From NCBI GenBank assembly GCA_963727625.1, contig CAVSHR010000012.1, forward strand, positions 352,001-416,000: a stretch of 64,000 bases of DNA. Reading direction: 5' to 3'. The position numbers were made by a program, and so were the translations under genes. Shown here piece after piece: positions 2,392-50,448 of this stretch (the first letter of the stretch is position 1; every line of letters begins with the position of its first letter). This DNA is from an uncultured delta proteobacterium (GTDB lineage: Bacteria; Desulfobacterota; Binatia; UBA9968). The notes beneath the pieces are model-generated. The model did not search any database and was not told where the DNA came from. It was given only the letters and a program-made list of their open reading frames with translations.

Positions 2392-2438
2392 TTCGCAAAG
2401 TTGCAAATACAGCGCCTCTCTTCTGTCAGATATGCCGA
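2392..2438. promoter_or_regulatory. Paired putative enhancer (UAS) sites
   Basis: TTCGCA-AAGT-TGCAAA (2392) and CTGTCA-GATA-TGCCGA (2423), 31 bp apart. Confidence 0.55.
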
Positions 2439-2575
2439 AACGCCGCGGTGTGGCCACTATCTCAGCGTCGGCAAGACGAGACCACATTAAATAATAAAAC
2501 GACTCGGAGAAGCGCTTCATCGCCGGGGCTTGAAATCAGTGGGCGAGAGTGATGACGACGGCATAGCGTCGTGAC

Positions 2576-2684
2576 GTGCCCGTAGCTCAGCCAAAGCCCG
2601 AGACTTTCTAGCATAGGCTATGACAACATCTCCTTCACGATGCTCTGCGGATCAGCACCGGCGCGCTCGCATGGCGCACCACGT
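2576..2684. repeat. Diverged direct repeat, copy B (USP 3' end plus downstream DNA)
   Basis: Aligns with 536-648. Confidence 0.8.
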
Positions 2685-3546
2685 TCTCTGTGACGCTGCC
2701 CATCGCCCATCGGGTGATACCGGAACGACCATGTGTACACATGGCAATCAAGCTATCCGAGGTCTCGCGTGCCAGAGCGATGATCTCGTCACTGGCCATG
2801 CCTTCTTTAGATATGTGCCTGACCTTGTTGACGCCCAGTTTTGTGACTGCCGCAGCCTTCTTCTCAAGATATTCGTTGGCGCCATCCCGCGCAATGGCGA
2901 TTAACTCGCGGGAGTTGAGACCGATATTATAGTAGCTCTCATTGGTTGCGTAGCGGGCGTACGGGACATCGTAAGCGCGGAATAAGACAACCTTGAGGTC
3001 TAATTTCTTCGCCACTTCGGCAACCATCGGAAATACGCTCTCCGCCAGTTCCGAGCCGTCGAGCGGCACGATGACGGTTTTTAACGTTACCACGCCTCGA
3101 TTCTCAGCCTTTTCTTTCGCGCGCACGAGCAGCACCGGATTACCTGATCCCCGGACGACTTTTTCGGCAATGCTCCCCAACAACCAACGCTGAAGCCCCG
3201 ACCTCCCGTGCGTGGCCAGGGCAATCAAAGTGTTTTTGTCCTCTGCCGCCCGGTCGATGATGACCTCCGCCGCGTTTCCATGGTTCAACGTGCACTTCAC
3301 GTGTAGGCCGGGAAAACTTCCGGAAATAAACTCTAAGTAACTCTTGCCCCGTCCTATCTGGTCTTCTCGCAAGATGCTTAAGAGGCGCGCTCTGTTGGCC
3401 GATGCATGAGCGCCGAAGCCTGCCGTGTCGATTACGGTTAGAAGCTCGACAGGAATTCTCAGCTTGTCGGCCAGGCAGCGGCCGTAAGGCAGCGCCTGCT
3501 CGGCCGTCTTTGAGCCGTCGAGCGGAATCAGTATGCGGCTGTACAT
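2635..3546 (-). CDS. Tandem-domain universal stress protein
   Basis: MYSRILIPLDGS...ATHGRSGLQRWLLGSIAEKVVR and VIVPLDGS...THGRSGITRWAMGSVTENVVR; start set to ATG 3546. Confidence 0.92.
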   Translation of the reverse strand: MYSRILIPLDGSKTAEQALPYGRCLADKLRIPVELLTVIDTAGFGAHASANRARLLSILREDQIGRGKSYLEFISGSFPGLHVKCTLNHGNAAEVIIDRAAEDKNTLIALATHGRSGLQRWLLGSIAEKVVRGSGNPVLLVRAKEKAENRGVVTLKTVIVPLDGSELAESVFPMVAEVAKKLDLKVVLFRAYDVPYARYATNESYYNIGLNSRELIAIARDGANEYLEKKAAAVTKLGVNKVRHISKEGMASDEIIALARETSDSLIAMCTHGRSGITRWAMGSVTENVVRHASAPVLIRRAS

Positions 3547-3575
3547 TCGTGCCTTCCTCTTTTCCTCCGCGACTT

Positions 3576-3591
3576 TGCTTCTATCTTGCCA
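3576..3591 (-). promoter_or_regulatory. Weak-match sigma-54 promoter (usp)
   Basis: TGGCAAGATAGAAGCA, correct spacing, poor -12 context. Confidence 0.5.
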
Positions 3592-3659
3592 AGGTAGAGC
3601 AAAAAAAATACCACAAATTGTCCAGCGCGGCGAAGCCGCAACCGAATCTCGGAGTATTT

Positions 3660-3764
3660 CTCGCAAAGACGCAAAGGGCGCAAAGCTCGGAAATTAAAGG
3701 CAAGGTCATTCGCAAGCGTTTTCGTCATTTCCTCGTAAACTTGGCGACTTTGCGCCTTCGCGGG
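3660..3764. repeat. REP/MITE-like imperfect inverted repeat element
   Basis: Arms ctcgcaaagacgcaaagggcgcaaag ... cttggcgactttgcgccttcgcggg; related copy at ~57926-57996. Confidence 0.7.
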
Positions 3765-3871
3765 AAGAAAATCCGAATCGGAAACGTCTCATGTGTAGAA
3801 AATTTGCGCGGGCCGCGAAAATTTCGAAGTATAGTAGTACTATGTTTTCCGGAAGCGTCTCGTAACTACGT

Positions 3872-3919
3872 TTGCCAGCATTGCTAGGACATAAGTTGAT
3901 ATTTTTTCAAATCTGATAA
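3872..3919. promoter_or_regulatory. Paired putative enhancer sites
   Basis: TTGCCA-GCAT-TGCTAG (3872) and TTTTCA-AATC-TGATAA (3904), 32 bp apart. Confidence 0.55.
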
Positions 3920-48222: not shown

Positions 48223-48272
48223 GCGTTTTGTAGCTGGCGCAGGGCGCCCAGAGCAACGAAGGAGGGAAGTCT

Positions 48273-48896
48273 ATGAAAATTCCTCTGCAGATCACCTTTC
48301 GCAACATGCCGCCTTCCAATGCGATCGAAGAAAACATCCGCGAGAAAGCGGCCAAACTCGATTCGCTCTTTGACGGCATCATGAGCTGTCGAGTCATCGT
48401 CGAGGCGCCGCACCGCCACCACCATAAGGGCAAAGCCTACGAGGTGCGCATTGATATGACCGTGCCGGGCGGCGAGCTGGTGGTCAACCGCGCGCCCAAG
48501 CGCCTCGACGCCGCGAAATCTGTGAGTCCCGAAGAACTGGAAAAGGTTTTGACCGAAAGCCATGAGCCGAGCAAGCACGCCGCGCATGAAGATGTCTATG
48601 TCACCATCCGCGACGCCTTTAACGCTGCCGGCCGGAAATTGCAGGATTATGCACGGCGCCGCCGCGGCAAAACAAAAACCCACGAAGCCGCGCCGCTGGC
48701 GCGGGTGGTCAGGCTTTTTCCCGTTGAAGATTACGGATTTATTGAAACGCCGGATGGACGGGAGCTGTACTTCCACAAAAACAGCGTGCTGCATCCCGGC
48801 TTCGAACGCTTGGAAGTCGGCGCGGAGGTCTATTATGCCGAGGAGCTCGGTGAAAAAGGGCCGCAGGCGAGCACCGTGCGCGCGGTCGCCCGCTAA
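48273..48896 (+). CDS. HPF/RaiA ribosome-associated domain fused to a cold-shock domain
   Basis: PLQITFRNM..S.AIE, I.SCRVIVE.PH, DVYVTIRDAF; YGFIETPDGRELYFHKNSV...GPQA. Confidence 0.92.
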   Translation: MKIPLQITFRNMPPSNAIEENIREKAAKLDSLFDGIMSCRVIVEAPHRHHHKGKAYEVRIDMTVPGGELVVNRAPKRLDAAKSVSPEELEKVLTESHEPSKHAAHEDVYVTIRDAFNAAGRKLQDYARRRRGKTKTHEAAPLARVVRLFPVEDYGFIETPDGRELYFHKNSVLHPGFERLEVGAEVYYAEELGEKGPQASTVRAVAR

Positions 48897-48917
48897 ACTG
48901 GAGTAAGCAGTCTCGCC

Positions 48918-49730
48918 ATGTTTCAGGAAGTCTTAGCTTGCCTCGACGGCTCGGCGCTGGCGGAAAAAATCCTGCCCTTGGCGCGCGCGCTGAGCGCGTC
49001 GAAGGGAGGCAAATTGGTCCTGCTGCGCGTCGTCGCGGACAGTGCCGAACTTTCCGCCGAGGAGGAATCCTTGCGCGCCAGCGCGCGCCGGTACGGCGCG
49101 GAGCTGCGCTGGGTGGTTTCCGCCGATCCGGCGGCGGCCATCGGCGCCGAGCTCGAGCGTGGCCCGCAAAGGATCGCCGCGCTCACCACCCACGGACACA
49201 GCGCTTGGGTCGAAGCGATTTTGGGCGGTGTCGCGCTGCGCGTGATCCGTGAAGCCAAGCGCCCGGTGGTGATTTTTCGGCCGCTGGACGAAGACCGCGA
49301 AGCGCCGGAAAAAATCGATCTCATCGCGGTCGCGCTGGACGGCAGCCGGTTTGCGGAAAAGATTCTCCCGCACGCCGTGACCGCCGCGCAGTGTTTATCA
49401 GCGCGGCTACAATTGCTCCAAGTATCGCCGGTCGTGGCCGTGCCGGCGGACTTAGCCAAACAAAAAAGGCTCGACGTCCATGAAGCATCCTATCTTCATC
49501 GCAAAGCCGGCAAGATCGAAGCAGCCAACCGCATAGAGGTTCAGTGGGAAGTCCTGCACGGTAATCCCGCCGAGGCCATCTGCGGCTATCTCAAGGGTAT
49601 GCCGGACACTCTTTTGGCAATGACCACCCACGCGCGCAGCGCCATAGAGCGGACCGTGCTCGGCAGCGTCGCCGGCTCCTGCTTACGCCACGCCAGCGTG
49701 CCGCTGCTACTCCACTGGCCGCATCATTAA
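48918..49730 (+). CDS. Tandem-domain universal stress protein
   Basis: LACLDGSALAE, TTHG...LGGVA; VALDGSRFAE, MTTHARS...LGSVA. Confidence 0.88.
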   Translation: MFQEVLACLDGSALAEKILPLARALSASKGGKLVLLRVVADSAELSAEEESLRASARRYGAELRWVVSADPAAAIGAELERGPQRIAALTTHGHSAWVEAILGGVALRVIREAKRPVVIFRPLDEDREAPEKIDLIAVALDGSRFAEKILPHAVTAAQCLSARLQLLQVSPVVAVPADLAKQKRLDVHEASYLHRKAGKIEAANRIEVQWEVLHGNPAEAICGYLKGMPDTLLAMTTHARSAIERTVLGSVAGSCLRHASVPLLLHWPHH

Positions 49731-49933
49731 AAACGGATGAAGACGAAAGCATGAGGGATGAAACCATCCGAGCGACGGCCATCGAGCCTCAACTTCATCC
49801 TTGTGCTTTCAACACCCGCGCTCGCCGGGGCGTAGGCTGCAATCCCCTTGCGGGTCAACGGTTCGACGGTTTCGGGCGCCAAGGCGCCGCGCCGCTCGCC
49901 AGGGAAGGTTTCGACCGGCTTGCCGATGATCAT
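49727..49933 (-). CDS. Possible small hypothetical protein
   Basis: ATGA overlap with stop of the upstream 49930-50301 gene; no recognisable motif. Confidence 0.3.
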   Translation of the reverse strand: MIIGKPVETFPGERRGALAPETVEPLTRKGIAAYAPASAGVESTRMKLRLDGRRSDGFIPHAFVFIRF

Positions 49934-50301
49934 GCCGCCTGCCTATGGCTGGAGCGACGGCGGCGAGTGCCCGCCTCATCGGGAGCGCTTCCGGACAGTT
50001 CCCGAAACCCGCGGCGGATGTAACTCGGGTCGAGATTCAACAAATCACAGACGTTGTTGAATGAGAACATCCACTCACTGTCGTTCGCCATAATCCACGC
50101 TTCGGCCTCGTGAAATTGTTTTTTGCCCTCCCGGTCCTGCGCCCCGCTGAACTTCCGATAGCTTTGAATTGCGTCTTCGAGCAACGCGATCAACAGAGCC
50201 TTTTCCGGCTCCAGATGCTCGCCGCGACGCATCGTGTCGAAATATTGCTGCGCCAGTGAGCTGTCTTTGCCCAGGTTTGTCACTGTGTTTTCTCTCATCA
50301 T
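49930..50301 (-). CDS. Conserved-looking hypothetical protein
   Basis: PEKALLIALLEDAI...EAEAWI...FSFNNVCDLLNLDPSYIR; own sigma-54 promoter and AAGG RBS. Confidence 0.8.
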   Translation of the reverse strand: MMRENTVTNLGKDSSLAQQYFDTMRRGEHLEPEKALLIALLEDAIQSYRKFSGAQDREGKKQFHEAEAWIMANDSEWMFSFNNVCDLLNLDPSYIRRGFRELSGSAPDEAGTRRRRSSHRQAA

Positions 50302-50356
50302 GGAGCACCTTCCTTCCTTTTCCCGCGCGCCGGCATGTCACCCTGGAATTAGAAAA

Positions 50357-50372
50357 CGCAACCGATGTGCCA
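50357..50372 (-). promoter_or_regulatory. sigma-54 promoter
   Basis: TGGCACATCGGTTGCG. Confidence 0.8.
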
Positions 50373-50401
50373 GGCAAATTGCAGCGGTTAATCCGGTTTT
50401 G

Positions 50402-50448
50402 TTCGCAAGCTTGCAAGGATTTCCCCCTCGACTTCTTGCGATTGCGAA
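50402..50448. promoter_or_regulatory. Paired putative enhancer sites between divergent promoters
   Basis: TTCGCA-AGCT-TGCAAG (50402) and TTCTTG-CGAT-TGCGAA (50433), 31 bp apart. Confidence 0.62.

What the first reader, a model, noticed from the sequence alone, without database searches (positions are those of the whole stretch)
2392..50448. Recurring paired palindrome (about TTCKCR-N4-TGMRAA) with fixed 31-bp spacing: candidate new enhancer motif
13 pairs found by eye, starting at 2392/2423, 3872/3904, 6489/6521, 7507/7538, 19178/19209, 21156/21187, 24413/24444, 31329/31360, 32914/32945, 37314/37345, 44903/44934, 48081/48112 and 50402/50433. Eleven are 31 bp apart and two are 32 bp, i.e. three helical turns. 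The best copy is the perfect TTCTCA-CCGC-TGAGAA. Established: NtrC-type bEBPs bind tandem dyad sites on one helix face. Inference: these are the binding sites of the island's own regulator, often shared by two divergent promoters. Individual sites are degenerate; the constant spacing is the main evidence.
Basis: partly seen in the sequence, partly recalled or inferred. Interest (0 to 1): 0.85.

Follow-up and report, generated by a model that had tools for sequence, protein, structure and literature searches.

The report
Paired enhancer sites of sigma-54 stress regulon
The recurring paired palindromes are real and are most likely the docking sites of one sigma-54 activator protein that switches on some 30 or more stress and dormancy promoters in an uncultured soil bacterium (Candidatus Binatia), probably when oxygen runs low.

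Summary
All 13 pairs sit at the stated coordinates: 11 are 31 bp apart and 2 are 32 bp apart. The 31-bp spacing is a sharp, isolated peak in the window, in the rest of the genome and in related genomes.

The core is TTnnCA-N4-TGnnAA, twice. Only the dyads are conserved, not the spacer. In this genome, 34 outward-facing sigma-54 -24/-12 matches lie within 200 bp of 38 pairs, against 1.4 expected. They sit at helically phased distances (period about 10.3 bp, mode about 48 bp), and the phasing repeats in another genus.

The only sigma-54 activator gene on the 661-kb contig is the window's REC-AAA+-HTH response regulator. A pair lies directly before its start codon in all 8 orthologous loci aligned, and at the matching place in 5 more genomes. 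Its kinase carries a FixL-type haem-PAS domain.

Targets include universal stress proteins, Hsp20, a Lon-like protease, a ribosome hibernation factor, RtcB/archease, CBS proteins, class II ribonucleotide reductase, PFOR and ferritin. This resembles the mycobacterial DosR regulon in content.

The architecture is canonical (NtrC sites at glnAp2 are 32 bp apart). This is therefore a new motif and regulon of a known kind, found across one Binatia family. No binding or expression data exist.

The parts
2392..2438 (.). Dyad pair 1 (sites 2392-2407 and 2423-2438, d=31). Target: leftward PaaA/BoxB-like plus ferritin-like genes.
   Evidence: 2 core mismatches. A CGGCAT-N5-TTGCG match lies 47.5 bp from the proximal site centre.
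2337..2352 (-). Sigma-54 -24/-12 candidate (8 of 11 to consensus) for the 1196-2311(-) gene.
   Evidence: matrix score 12.9, at the modal distance of 47.5 bp. A GGAGGG ribosome-binding site and an ATG follow, read directly.
3872..3919 (.). Dyad pair 2 (d=32).
   Evidence: 1 mismatch.
4035..4050 (+). Sigma-54 promoter candidate TGGCAT-N5-ATGCT before the 4095-4664(+) gene (189 aa, no family).
   Evidence: 123.5 bp from the pair.
6489..6536 (.). Dyad pair 3 (d=32).
6433..6448 (-). Sigma-54 promoter candidate, leftward.
   Evidence: 48.5 bp.
7507..7553 (.). Dyad pair 4.
7608..7623 (+). Sigma-54 promoter candidate before the nucleotidyl-transferase gene 7714-8754(+).
   Evidence: (62.5 bp).
19178..19224 (.). 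Dyad pair 5, the best core match in the genome (0 mismatches). It lies between divergent promoters.
19032..19047 (-). Sigma-54 promoter candidate for the leftward operon: glycine-zipper lipoprotein, a 162-aa gene, a second DnaK, and HlyD/ABC/MacB/TolC-type efflux genes (11460-19001).
   Evidence: (138.5 bp).
19241..19256 (+). Sigma-54 promoter candidate before the cytochrome-c-like gene 19327-19755(+). It is unusually close, 24.5 bp from the proximal site centre.
21156..21202 (.). Dyad pair 6.
21264..21279 (+). Sigma-54 promoter candidate before archease, RtcB, SPFH/Band7 and DUF1488 (21311-24335).
   Evidence: (69.5 bp).
24413..24459 (.). Dyad pair 7.
24530..24545 (+). Sigma-54 promoter candidate before the 1380-aa BcrAD/BadFG activase-DUF2229 gene.
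   Evidence: (78.5 bp).
31329..31375 (.). Dyad pair 8.
31254..31269 (-). Sigma-54 promoter candidate for nicotinate phosphoribosyltransferase and a phosphoribosyltransferase (28994-31063, -).
   Evidence: (67.5 bp).
31547..32896 (-). The regulator: a REC - AAA+ (Walker A GESGVGKE, GSFTGA loop) - HTH_8 sigma-54 activator, called clade A here.
   Evidence: It reaches no named NCBIfam equivalog (AtoC 421 bits, cut-off 714). It is the only Sigma54_activat match on contig C12, out of 28 in the genome.
32914..32960 (.). Dyad pair 9, 18 bp before the regulator's start codon and downstream of its own promoter. This is the autoregulatory site.
   Evidence: It is conserved in 8 of 8 aligned orthologous loci and at the matching place in G042, G053, G055, G082 and G087.
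33007..33022 (-). Sigma-54 promoter candidate TGGCTT-N5-TTGCT facing pair 9 and the regulator gene.
   Evidence: The TGGC...TTGC is conserved in the alignment.
33087..35702 (-). Sensor histidine kinase: GAF - 3 PAS - HisKA - HATPase. The last PAS is a FixL-type haem-PAS domain.
   Evidence: E 1.9e-26 to FixL haem domain 1dp6_A, with the histidine of RSRHD aligned to SEHD.
37314..37360 (.). Dyad pair 10.
37420..37435 (+). Sigma-54 promoter candidate before three CBS-domain genes, hemerythrin, a dienelactone-hydrolase-like gene and class II (B12) ribonucleotide reductase (37736-42430).
   Evidence: (67.5 bp). NrdJ_Z, 632 bits against a cut-off of 400.
44903..44949 (.). Dyad pair 11, the weakest (3 core mismatches). 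It lies between divergent promoters.
44796..44811 (-). Sigma-54 promoter candidate for two universal stress protein genes (43311-44710, -).
   Evidence: (99.5 bp).
45062..45077 (+). Sigma-54 promoter candidate before 45158-45598(+) (146 aa, no family).
   Evidence: 120.5 bp.
48081..48127 (.). Dyad pair 12. Its first site is a perfect palindrome.
48207..48222 (+). Sigma-54 promoter candidate before the ribosome-hibernation-factor/cold-shock-domain fusion gene (48273-48896, +) and a universal stress protein gene (48918-49730).
   Evidence: (87.5 bp).
50402..50448 (.). Dyad pair 13, between divergent promoters.
50357..50372 (-). Sigma-54 promoter candidate for 49930-50301(-) (123 aa, no family).
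   Evidence: 37.5 bp.
50499..50514 (+). Sigma-54 promoter candidate before Hsp20, a Lon-like (LonB/LonC-type) protease and a DksA-like protein (50592-53935).
   Evidence: (58.5 bp).

Best explanation
Each pair is a bacterial enhancer (upstream activating sequence). It consists of two 16-bp dyads, TTyKCA-N4-TGMrAA, each fit for one HTH_8 dimer, with centres 31 bp (three helical turns) apart.

Proposed mechanism (inferred):
1. The window's cytoplasmic kinase senses its signal. The signal is most likely low oxygen, read by the FixL-type haem-PAS domain next to its HisKA domain.
2. The kinase phosphorylates the adjacent NtrC-type response regulator.
3. Regulator dimers on the two dyads nucleate the AAA+ ring on one face of the DNA.
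4. The ring contacts sigma-54 RNA polymerase at a -24/-12 promoter one to several whole helical turns away. The proximal site centre is most often about 48 bp from the -24 element, which places the sites near -74 and -105 if the usual register holds.
5. The result is transcription of a regulon of at least 30 promoters for stress survival and dormancy. About two thirds lie in a 220-kb island that includes this window.

The regulator also carries a pair in its own 5' leader, implying autoregulation. A receiver-less paralogue that sits in the regulon probably reads the same sites.

Shown here: the motif, the spacing, the promoter association, the phasing, conservation across genera, the autoregulatory footprint and the domain content. 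Inferred: binding, the signal and the direction of regulation.
For: 1. The spacing peak is real and independent of training.

2. Only the dyads are conserved. Spacer positions carry at most 0.4 bit (28 pairs at d=31), so this is not a repeat element.

3. Promoter association. Sigma-54 matches facing away from the pair within 200 bp: 34 for 38 pairs, against 1.4 expected. Inward-facing matches: 5. A lower-threshold scan adds plausible promoters for 6 of the 11 pairs that had none. rpoN is present in the genome.

4. Helical phasing. In this genome the distance from pair to -24 element has a Rayleigh peak at 10.3 bp (R=0.53, p=2.5e-4, n=33; p=1.4e-3 after dropping 3 suspected duplicates). It repeats in genome G055 of another genus (R=0.73, best period 10.9 bp, p=5e-5, n=19).

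5. Regulator assignment.
- One of 28 Sigma54_activat matches lies on contig C12, and it is this gene. C12 also holds 26 of the 38 pairs.
- A pair directly precedes the regulator's start in 8 of 8 orthologous loci aligned. There, only the -24/-12 element and the two dyads are conserved.
- The same juxtaposition appears by coordinates in G042, G053, G055, G082 and G087.
- Two loci of a 60%-identical paralogue clade have no pair within 10 kb.

6. Phyletic pattern (core pattern at d=31, <=2 mismatches, 100 genomes of the order).
- Family f1: 532 hits in 67 genomes, against 46 for the backwards control.
- Family f3: 4 hits in 28 genomes. Family f2: 10 hits in 5 genomes, against 6 for the control.
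- The regulator's orthologues (>=65% identity) occur in 36 of 67 f1 genomes and 0 of 33 others.
- Carriers average 11.5 pairs and non-carriers 3.8.

7. Coherent targets, conserved across genera. In this genome: USPs, Hsp20, Lon-like protease, DksA-like, HPF-CSD, RtcB/archease, CBS proteins, hemerythrin, NrdJ/Z, NAPRTase, ferritins, PFOR, PFK. In G055: USP x4, CBS x3, HPF-CSD, PFOR, DksA-BON, Zn-ribbon.

8. The kinase's last PAS domain matches the FixL haem domain, E 1.9e-26, with the histidine aligned.

9. Precedent. NtrC sites at glnAp2 are centred at -140 and -108 (PMC5159524, introduction passages).
Against: - There are no binding, transcript or start-site data. No RNA run holding this DNA was listed.
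- Promoters are consensus matches only.
- 31 family genomes without the orthologue still average 3.8 pairs, against about 0.7 for the control. Five of them have 9-13: G050, G104, G080, G084 and G022. Either paralogues share the motif or these assemblies miss the gene.
- The receiver-less paralogue has a near-identical recognition helix. The two cannot be separated by sequence.
- About 4 of the 38 pairs have no promoter and look like chance hits: C4:58482, C5:1058594, C9:217429 and C12:180706.
- 4 of the 33 distances (62.5-63.5 bp) are half a turn out of phase.
- A proximal site only about 48 bp from the -24 element is closer than classic NtrC enhancers. One promoter (19241) is 24.5 bp away.
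- Related genomes are not independent samples.
Confidence: 0.75

Rival explanations
1. The dyads are read mainly or only by the receiver-less paralogue (AAA+ and HTH_8 only; own genome C5:224734-225669, minus strand), not by the window's response regulator.
For: - Its recognition helix, ISLSSLYRKIEEL, is nearly the same as LSLSTLYRKLEKL of the window's regulator. Three other paralogues differ.
- It occurs in 46 of 67 family genomes and 0 of 33 others.
- G012 has three pairs with sigma-54 promoters within 10 kb of its copy, and no orthologue of the window's regulator was found there.
- Pairs with promoters precede its operon in this genome and in G008.
Against: - Pair counts follow the response regulator, not this paralogue. 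Carriers of the regulator average 11.9 pairs with the paralogue (n=29) and 9.6 without it (n=7). Non-carriers average 4.4 with the paralogue (n=17) and 3.1 without it (n=14).
- The island holding 26 of 38 pairs encodes the response regulator, not the paralogue.
- The conserved pair in the regulator's own leader is the usual mark of the cognate factor.
Confidence: 0.12
2. The dyads belong to a different DNA-binding protein, such as a co-regulator, a repressor or an FNR/CRP-like factor. That protein merely accompanies sigma-54 promoters, and the activator binds elsewhere or acts from solution.
For: - Binding was not tested.
- 16-bp dyads with 6-bp half-sites are common to many helix-turn-helix families.
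- Some family genomes have pairs although neither activator was found there (14 genomes, mean 3.1 pairs).
Against: - Tandem sites three turns apart, helically phased to -24/-12 elements at 37-140 bp, are the signature of enhancer-binding proteins.
- I saw no other conserved element in the aligned regulator leaders.
- The autoregulatory pair and the phyletic co-occurrence point to the activator.
Confidence: 0.07
3. The pairs are chance matches of a degenerate pattern in AT-rich intergenic DNA, or copies of a dispersed repeat element.
For: - Single sites are degenerate (8-12 of 12).
- The pairs were picked by eye.
- Two loci on C4 (108251 and 120768) share flanks and are duplicates.
Against: - The peak at 31 bp stands alone among all spacings tested, in the window, in the rest of the genome and in 66 of 67 family genomes.
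- 0 of 200 simulated windows reach the observed count.
- Spacers and flanks are not conserved.
Confidence: 0.01

Closest known systems
NtrC enhancer at E. coli glnAp2
   Same: - Two strong dyad sites for dimers of a REC-AAA+-HTH (Fis-type) activator, centred 32 bp apart (-140 and -108; PMC5159524, introduction).
- Dimers nucleate the hexamer.
- Activation of a sigma-54 -24/-12 promoter by contact from upstream.
   Different: - The half-site sequence differs (TTyKCA, against NtrC's TGCACC-type by recall).
- The sites are closer to the promoter (about -74/-105 here) and strictly phased.
- The regulator is not an NtrC equivalog (378 bits, cut-off 559).
- The regulon concerns stress and dormancy, not nitrogen.
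FixL/FixJ oxygen-sensing two-component system of rhizobia
   Same: The kinase's HisKA-proximal PAS domain matches the FixL haem-PAS domain (E 1.9e-26) with the haem-ligand histidine aligned (residue identity by recall).
   Different: - The partner is a sigma-54 AAA+ activator, not a FixJ/LuxR-type regulator.
- The kinase has an extra GAF and two more PAS domains.
- It scores below the FixL equivalog cut-off (223 bits against 850).
- Haem binding is untested.
DosS/DosT-DosR dormancy regulon of Mycobacterium tuberculosis
   Same: - Content overlaps the table of DosR-regulon genes (PMC4090907, Table 3): several universal stress proteins, an Hsp20 (hspX), NrdZ-type ribonucleotide reductase, a phosphofructokinase, a bacterioferritin and Rv2626c/hrp1.
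- By recall, hrp1 is a CBS protein, Rv2631 is an RtcB homologue and Rv0079 is a hibernation factor.
- A haem-based kinase sits at the top of the system.
   Different: - DosR is a NarL/LuxR-type regulator acting at sigma-70-type promoters with a different 20-bp box.
- Here the regulator is a sigma-54 AAA+ activator with tandem enhancers.
- The likeness is functional (convergent), not homology of the regulators.
NtrY/NtrX
   Same: A haem-binding PAS kinase is paired with an NtrC-family regulator that responds to oxygen or redox state (PMC9409073, discussion passage citing Carrica 2012).
   Different: - NtrY is a membrane protein, unlike this cytoplasmic kinase.
- The regulator scores below the NtrX equivalog cut-off (325 bits against 600).
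- NtrX has different targets (denitrification, envelope).
LuxO site TTGCA-N3-TGCAA and downstream enhancers of FlrC/FleQ/FlbD (recalled, not checked here)
   Same: - The half-sites share a TTGCA-like element.
- Activators bound downstream of the start site are precedents for the pair in the regulator's own leader.
   Different: - The half-site spacing differs (N4 against N3).
- None of these is known to use 31-bp tandem pairs across a stress regulon.

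Membership tests
Bacterial enhancer (UAS) of a sigma-54 activator | Lies near a sigma-54 -24/-12 promoter that faces away from it | tested here: met
   34 outward-facing matches within 200 bp of 38 pairs, against 1.4 expected, and 5 inward-facing. In the window, 12 of 13 pairs have one, counting the 8-of-11 match found. The 13th pair lies downstream of the regulator's own promoter.
Bacterial enhancer (UAS) of a sigma-54 activator | Dyad-symmetric sites, usually in tandem on one helix face | tested here: met
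   16-bp dyads. The spacing peak is at 31 bp, with minor peaks at 30 and 32.
Bacterial enhancer (UAS) of a sigma-54 activator | Sigma-54 and an activator with AAA+ domain, GAFTGA-type loop and DNA-binding domain are encoded | tested here: met
   rpoN is at C6:181555-182031. The regulator has Sigma54_activat, a GSFTGA loop and HTH_8.
Bacterial enhancer (UAS) of a sigma-54 activator | Face-of-helix dependence relative to the promoter | tested here: met
   The distances have a period of 10.3 bp (p=2.5e-4) in this genome and 10.9 bp (p=5e-5) in G055. This is statistical evidence from natural promoters, not a spacing experiment.
Bacterial enhancer (UAS) of a sigma-54 activator | The activator binds the sites and the sites are needed for activation | not testable with these tools
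   Needs footprinting, DAP-seq and reporter assays.
NtrC (NR-I) / AtoC / ZraR equivalogs | Whole-protein score above the curated cut-off | tested here: not met
   AtoC 421 bits against 714. ZraR 380 against 760. NtrC 378 against 559. The protein belongs to the NtrC family by architecture only.
FixL-type haem-PAS oxygen sensor kinase | Haem-PAS domain next to HisKA with the proximal histidine | tested here: met
   E 1.9e-26 over 118 residues to 1dp6_A, with SEHDGYIARY aligned to RSRHDSYISRY.
FixL-type haem-PAS oxygen sensor kinase | FixL equivalog score; haem binding and oxygen-dependent kinase activity | tested here: not met
   223 bits against a cut-off of 850. Haem binding is not testable here. 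The kinase works like FixL but is not filed as FixL.
DosR (DevR) dormancy regulon | NarL/LuxR-type regulator DosR and its 20-bp box | tested here: not met
   The regulator here is a sigma-54 AAA+ activator. Only the gene content resembles the DosR regulon.

The most novel reading that the evidence does not exclude
An uncultured soil lineage (one Binatia family) has wired a FixL-type haem oxygen sensor to sigma-54 through an NtrC-type activator. This wiring would run a hypoxic hibernation programme of 30 or more promoters, built independently of, but matching in content, the mycobacterial DosR dormancy regulon.

The regulon also contains a receiver-less copy of the activator that reads the same enhancers. 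That copy could hold the programme on after the phosphorylation signal fades, acting as a latch.
Probability: 0.4. Interest if true: 0.7.

Novelty: new member of a known kind. Interest (0 to 1): 0.5.

Why it matters
Nothing has been reported on gene regulation in Binatia. They are abundant soil and sediment bacteria known only from metagenomes. The library searches 'Binatia' + 'sigma-54' (0 papers) and 'Binatota' + 'sigma' (6 papers, none on regulation by title or abstract) found nothing on this.

This finding gives a testable regulatory code: a motif, its spacing, its phase, a regulator and a probable signal. The code covers a large stress and dormancy regulon and is conserved across many genera.

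The natural promoters also form a graded series of enhancer-to-promoter distances: about 37, 48, 58, 68, 79 and 90 bp. That series could be used to study short-range, face-dependent activation of sigma-54 polymerase.

If the oxygen link holds, it is a second, independent design of a dormancy regulon. It would also help to predict how these organisms survive anoxic spells in soil.

Tried and rejected
- Exact core pattern with a variable gap in 21 relatives. It was too strict: 1 hit in the own genome. It was still informative, because 11 of the 12 distinct hits had a spacing of 30-32 bp where 21-51 was allowed.
- RNA evidence. No RNA holder was listed for window 44001-54000, so no reads were laid.
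- Earlier notes of this scan. Nothing bears on this locus.
- Literature.
  - 'enhancer binding protein' + 'universal stress protein' + sigma-54 + regulon + Hsp20 gave 5 papers, none relevant by title or abstract.
  - haem + PAS + histidine kinase + sigma-54 + hypoxia + enhancer-binding protein gave 0 papers.
- First crude gene call. It put a minus-strand ORF at 48156-48794. Pfam shows the real gene is the plus-strand hibernation-factor/cold-shock fusion at 48273-48896.
- Phylum-wide pattern scan.
  - The 120 other genomes searched (117 of other classes, 3 of the same class) give 0-10 hits each, against 0-5 for the control, often in AT-rich DNA.
  - None reaches the 11 or more typical of carriers.
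  - The 3 genomes of the same class have 0 hits.
  - A few single hits look genuine (G167:C16, G173:C13) but were not followed.
- Repeat-element reading: rejected.
- The locus titled 'Eisenbacteria' (L008). It is not evidence for spread to another phylum.

Full report
OBSERVATION

Eleven pairs are offset by 31 bp and two by 32 bp, and 48081 is a perfect palindrome.

Their shared core is TTnnCA-N4-TGnnAA. All 13 pairs have at most 3 mismatches in the 16 core positions.

The spacing is the strong signal.
- In the window, at <=3 mismatches, there are 11 pairs at 31 bp and 4 at 32 bp. Other spacings from 17 to 89 average 0.65. Markov-1 simulated windows average 0.165, and 0 of 200 reach 11.
- At that threshold no pair was missed. 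A few weak third sites flank known pairs.
- In the whole 6.6-Mb genome, at <=2 mismatches, 31 bp gives 22 pairs, 32 bp gives 6, and every other spacing from 20 to 59 gives 0-4.
This test is independent of the sites that trained the matrix.

WHAT IT IS

The genome is a Candidatus Binatia assembly (record titles of the nearest loci).

Of 38 non-redundant pairs, 26 lie on contig C12 between 180,706 and 402,402. That is 3.4% of the genome. Two of the 26 are halves of one triple site.

Alignment of 28 pairs with 31-bp spacing shows information only in the dyads. Spacer positions carry at most 0.4 bit. The spacer is AT-rich beside the sites and GC-rich in the middle. The pairs are therefore protein-binding sites, not a repeat element.

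PROMOTERS

I scanned for TGGCAC-N5-TTGCW, requiring GG and GC and at least 9 of 11 matches. Such matches occur 0.094 times per kb per strand in the genome.
- Within 200 bp of the 38 pairs, 34 matches face away from the pair, against 1.4 expected. Five face inward.
- A promoter matrix built from these finds further plausible promoters for 6 of the 11 pairs that had none. One is pair 2392, at the modal distance.
- Four pairs have nothing and are probably chance hits.
- Seven of 38 pairs, three of them in the window, sit between divergent promoters.

The distance from the proximal site centre to the T of TGGCAC clusters at about 37.5, 46.5-49.5 (10 cases), 58.5-59.5, 67.5-69.5, 78.5-79.5 and 87.5 bp.
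- The Rayleigh statistic peaks at 10.3 bp (R=0.53, n=33). Against a jitter null, p=2.5e-4, or p=1.4e-3 after dropping three suspected duplicates.
- Four distances of 62.5-63.5 bp are out of phase.
- In G055, a genome of another genus, 19 promoters beside 16 pairs show the same series. R=0.73 at 10.9 bp, p=5e-5, with a similar phase.

WHOSE SITES

The genome has 28 matches to the sigma-54 activator domain. Only one lies on the 661-kb contig C12: the window's REC-AAA+-HTH_8 gene. rpoN is present.

A pair lies 18 bp before this gene's start codon.
- In 8 of 8 orthologous loci examined (own, L001, G002, G003, G006, G008, G009, G011), a pair sits in the same place.
- In the alignment, the only conserved blocks are a TGGC...TTGC promoter, the two dyads about 68 bp downstream of it, and the coding start.
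- By coordinates, the same holds in G042, G053, G055, G082 and G087, at 69-80% protein identity.
- At its own gene, therefore, the pair lies in the leader, downstream of the promoter.
- Two loci of a 60%-identical paralogue clade have no pair within 10 kb.

Across 100 other genomes of the order, I counted the core pattern at 31 bp with <=2 mismatches.
- Family f1: 532 hits in 67 genomes, against 46 for the reversed control.
- Family f3: 4 hits in 28 genomes.
- Family f2: 10 hits in 5 genomes, against 6 for the control.

Orthologues of the regulator (>=65% identity) are in 36 of 67 f1 genomes and 0 of 33 others. A receiver-less paralogue (56% identical, AAA+ and HTH only) is in 46 of 67 and 0 of 33.

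Mean pair counts by which of the two genes a genome carries:

| Genes present | Genomes | Mean pairs |
|---|---|---|
| Both | 29 | 11.9 |
| Regulator only | 7 | 9.6 |
| Paralogue only | 17 | 4.4 |
| Neither | 14 | 3.1 |

The reversed control averages about 0.7 per genome. The counts include three genomes flagged unpublished (G079, G083, G098), with one hit each.

The regulator is thus the main correlate. The residue in non-carriers, the high counts in G050, G104, G080, G084 and G022, and the shared recognition helix (LSLSTLYRKLEKL in the regulator; ISLSSLYRKIEEL in the paralogue; ITERALRYKLKKY, TSERGLRYKLIKY and VDRTTLYRKLEEF in three other paralogues) suggest that the subfamily shares the motif.

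These genomes are relatives and many are incomplete. The numbers describe a pattern and are not an independent-sample test.

In this genome the paralogue lies in a four-gene operon behind a pair and a sigma-54 promoter. It is therefore itself a target.

Outside the order, the 120 other genomes of the phylum give 0-10 hits each, against 0-5 for the control. The three genomes of the same class give none.

SIGNAL AND REGULON

The adjacent kinase has the domain order GAF, three PAS, HisKA, HATPase.
- Its last PAS domain matches the FixL haem domain. E is 1.9e-26 to 1dp6_A.
- SEHDGYIARY aligns with RSRHDSYISRY. That this histidine is the haem ligand is recalled, not tested.
- The kinase is below the FixL cut-off, so it works like FixL without being FixL.

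Window targets by pair:
- PaaA/BoxB-like protein and ferritin.
- A nucleotidyl transferase.
- A second DnaK with a MacAB/TolC-type pump.
- A cytochrome-c-like protein.
- Archease, RtcB, SPFH and DUF1488.
- A 1380-aa double activase.
- NAPRTase and a phosphoribosyltransferase.
- The regulator itself.
- Three CBS proteins, hemerythrin and class II ribonucleotide reductase (NrdJ_Z, 632 bits against a cut-off of 400).
- Universal stress proteins.
- A hibernation-factor/cold-shock fusion with a USP.
- Hsp20, a Lon-like protease and a DksA-like protein.

Outside the window, targets include PFOR subunits, phosphofructokinase, a phosphorylase-like protein, USP, CBS, DUF2267, ferritin, a desaturase, a sigma-70-family protein, ZIP, BON and an M50 protease.

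In G055 the pair-linked promoters precede USP (4), CBS (3), the same hibernation-factor fusion, PFOR, phosphoketolase, phosphoglycerate kinase, DksA-BON, a Zn-ribbon protein, VIT1, NfeD and an acyl-CoA dehydrogenase.

The content overlaps the DosR regulon table of PMC4090907 (Table 3, read as passages): USPs, hspX, nrdZ, pfkB, bfrB, hrp1 and Rv2631.

COMPARISON WITH THE KNOWN

The architecture is that of NtrC at glnAp2, with sites at -140 and -108 (PMC5159524, introduction passages). A haem-PAS kinase paired with an NtrC-family partner has a precedent in NtrYX (PMC9409073, passages).

What is new:
- the motif sequence;
- the unnamed regulator (no NCBIfam equivalog);
- the size and content of the regulon;
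- the short, phased enhancer-promoter distances;
- the leader-located autoregulatory pair;
- the receiver-less paralogue inside the regulon.

I found no paper on sigma-54 regulation in Binatia in the library searched.

VERDICT

It is a new member of a known kind. No experiment backs binding, the transcription starts or the oxygen signal.

Noticed in passing
window 48273-48896 (+); also L119:1093-1692 (-) in G055: A ribosome hibernation factor domain (Ribosomal_S30AE) is fused to a C-terminal cold-shock domain. The fusion is conserved in another genus and lies behind a pair-dependent promoter in both.
   Followed up: partly
G000 C5:222851-227130 (L094:8851-13130): An operon lies behind a pair and a sigma-54 promoter: a rubrerythrin-like 168-aa gene, a 167-aa gene of no family, the receiver-less sigma-54 activator (334 aa) and a 568-aa protein with an AAA_33/zeta-toxin-like kinase domain. 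It may be a feed-forward or latch module.
   Followed up: partly
window 2360, 3933, 19149, 48145; G000 C12:343881/343912/343943: Weak third dyads lie 29-33 bp beside some pairs, and there is one clear triple site. Three dimers per hexamer would fit, but most of these are near noise level.
   Followed up: no
spacer of the pairs (28 aligned, genome-wide): The spacer has no conserved bases but a composition pattern. It is AT-rich for about 5 bp next to each dyad and GC-rich (AT fraction 0.29-0.36) in the central 5 bp.
   Followed up: no
window 19825-21162 (-): An archaeal-type S-adenosylmethionine synthetase (PF01941, E 1.8e-145) is present in this bacterial genome, next to pair 21156. No sigma-54 match was found on its side.
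   Followed up: no
window 11460-19001 (-): A second full DnaK (passes the DnaK equivalog cut-offs) appears co-oriented in one operon with HlyD, ABC ATPase, MacB-type permease and TolC-type outer-membrane genes.
   Followed up: no
window 36158-37273 (-): A 371-aa protein with a weak primase C-terminal (PriCT_1) match lies just upstream of the kinase gene. It may be a remnant of a mobile element at the centre of the island.
   Followed up: no
G000 C4:108251 and C4:120768: Two pair-plus-promoter loci 12.5 kb apart share their flanking sequence and the same 62.5-bp promoter distance. This is a recent segmental duplication.
   Followed up: no
window 54000-64000: No pairs occur here. ORFs are short and GC3 is low compared with the island, so the right-hand border of the regulon island lies near 54 kb.
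   Followed up: no
L008 = G095:C223: A contig titled 'Candidatus Eisenbacteria' in its public record has the same length (8973) and match coordinates (4947-5882) as a contig of a genome that the genome collection places in the window's own family. The two labels disagree.
   Followed up: no
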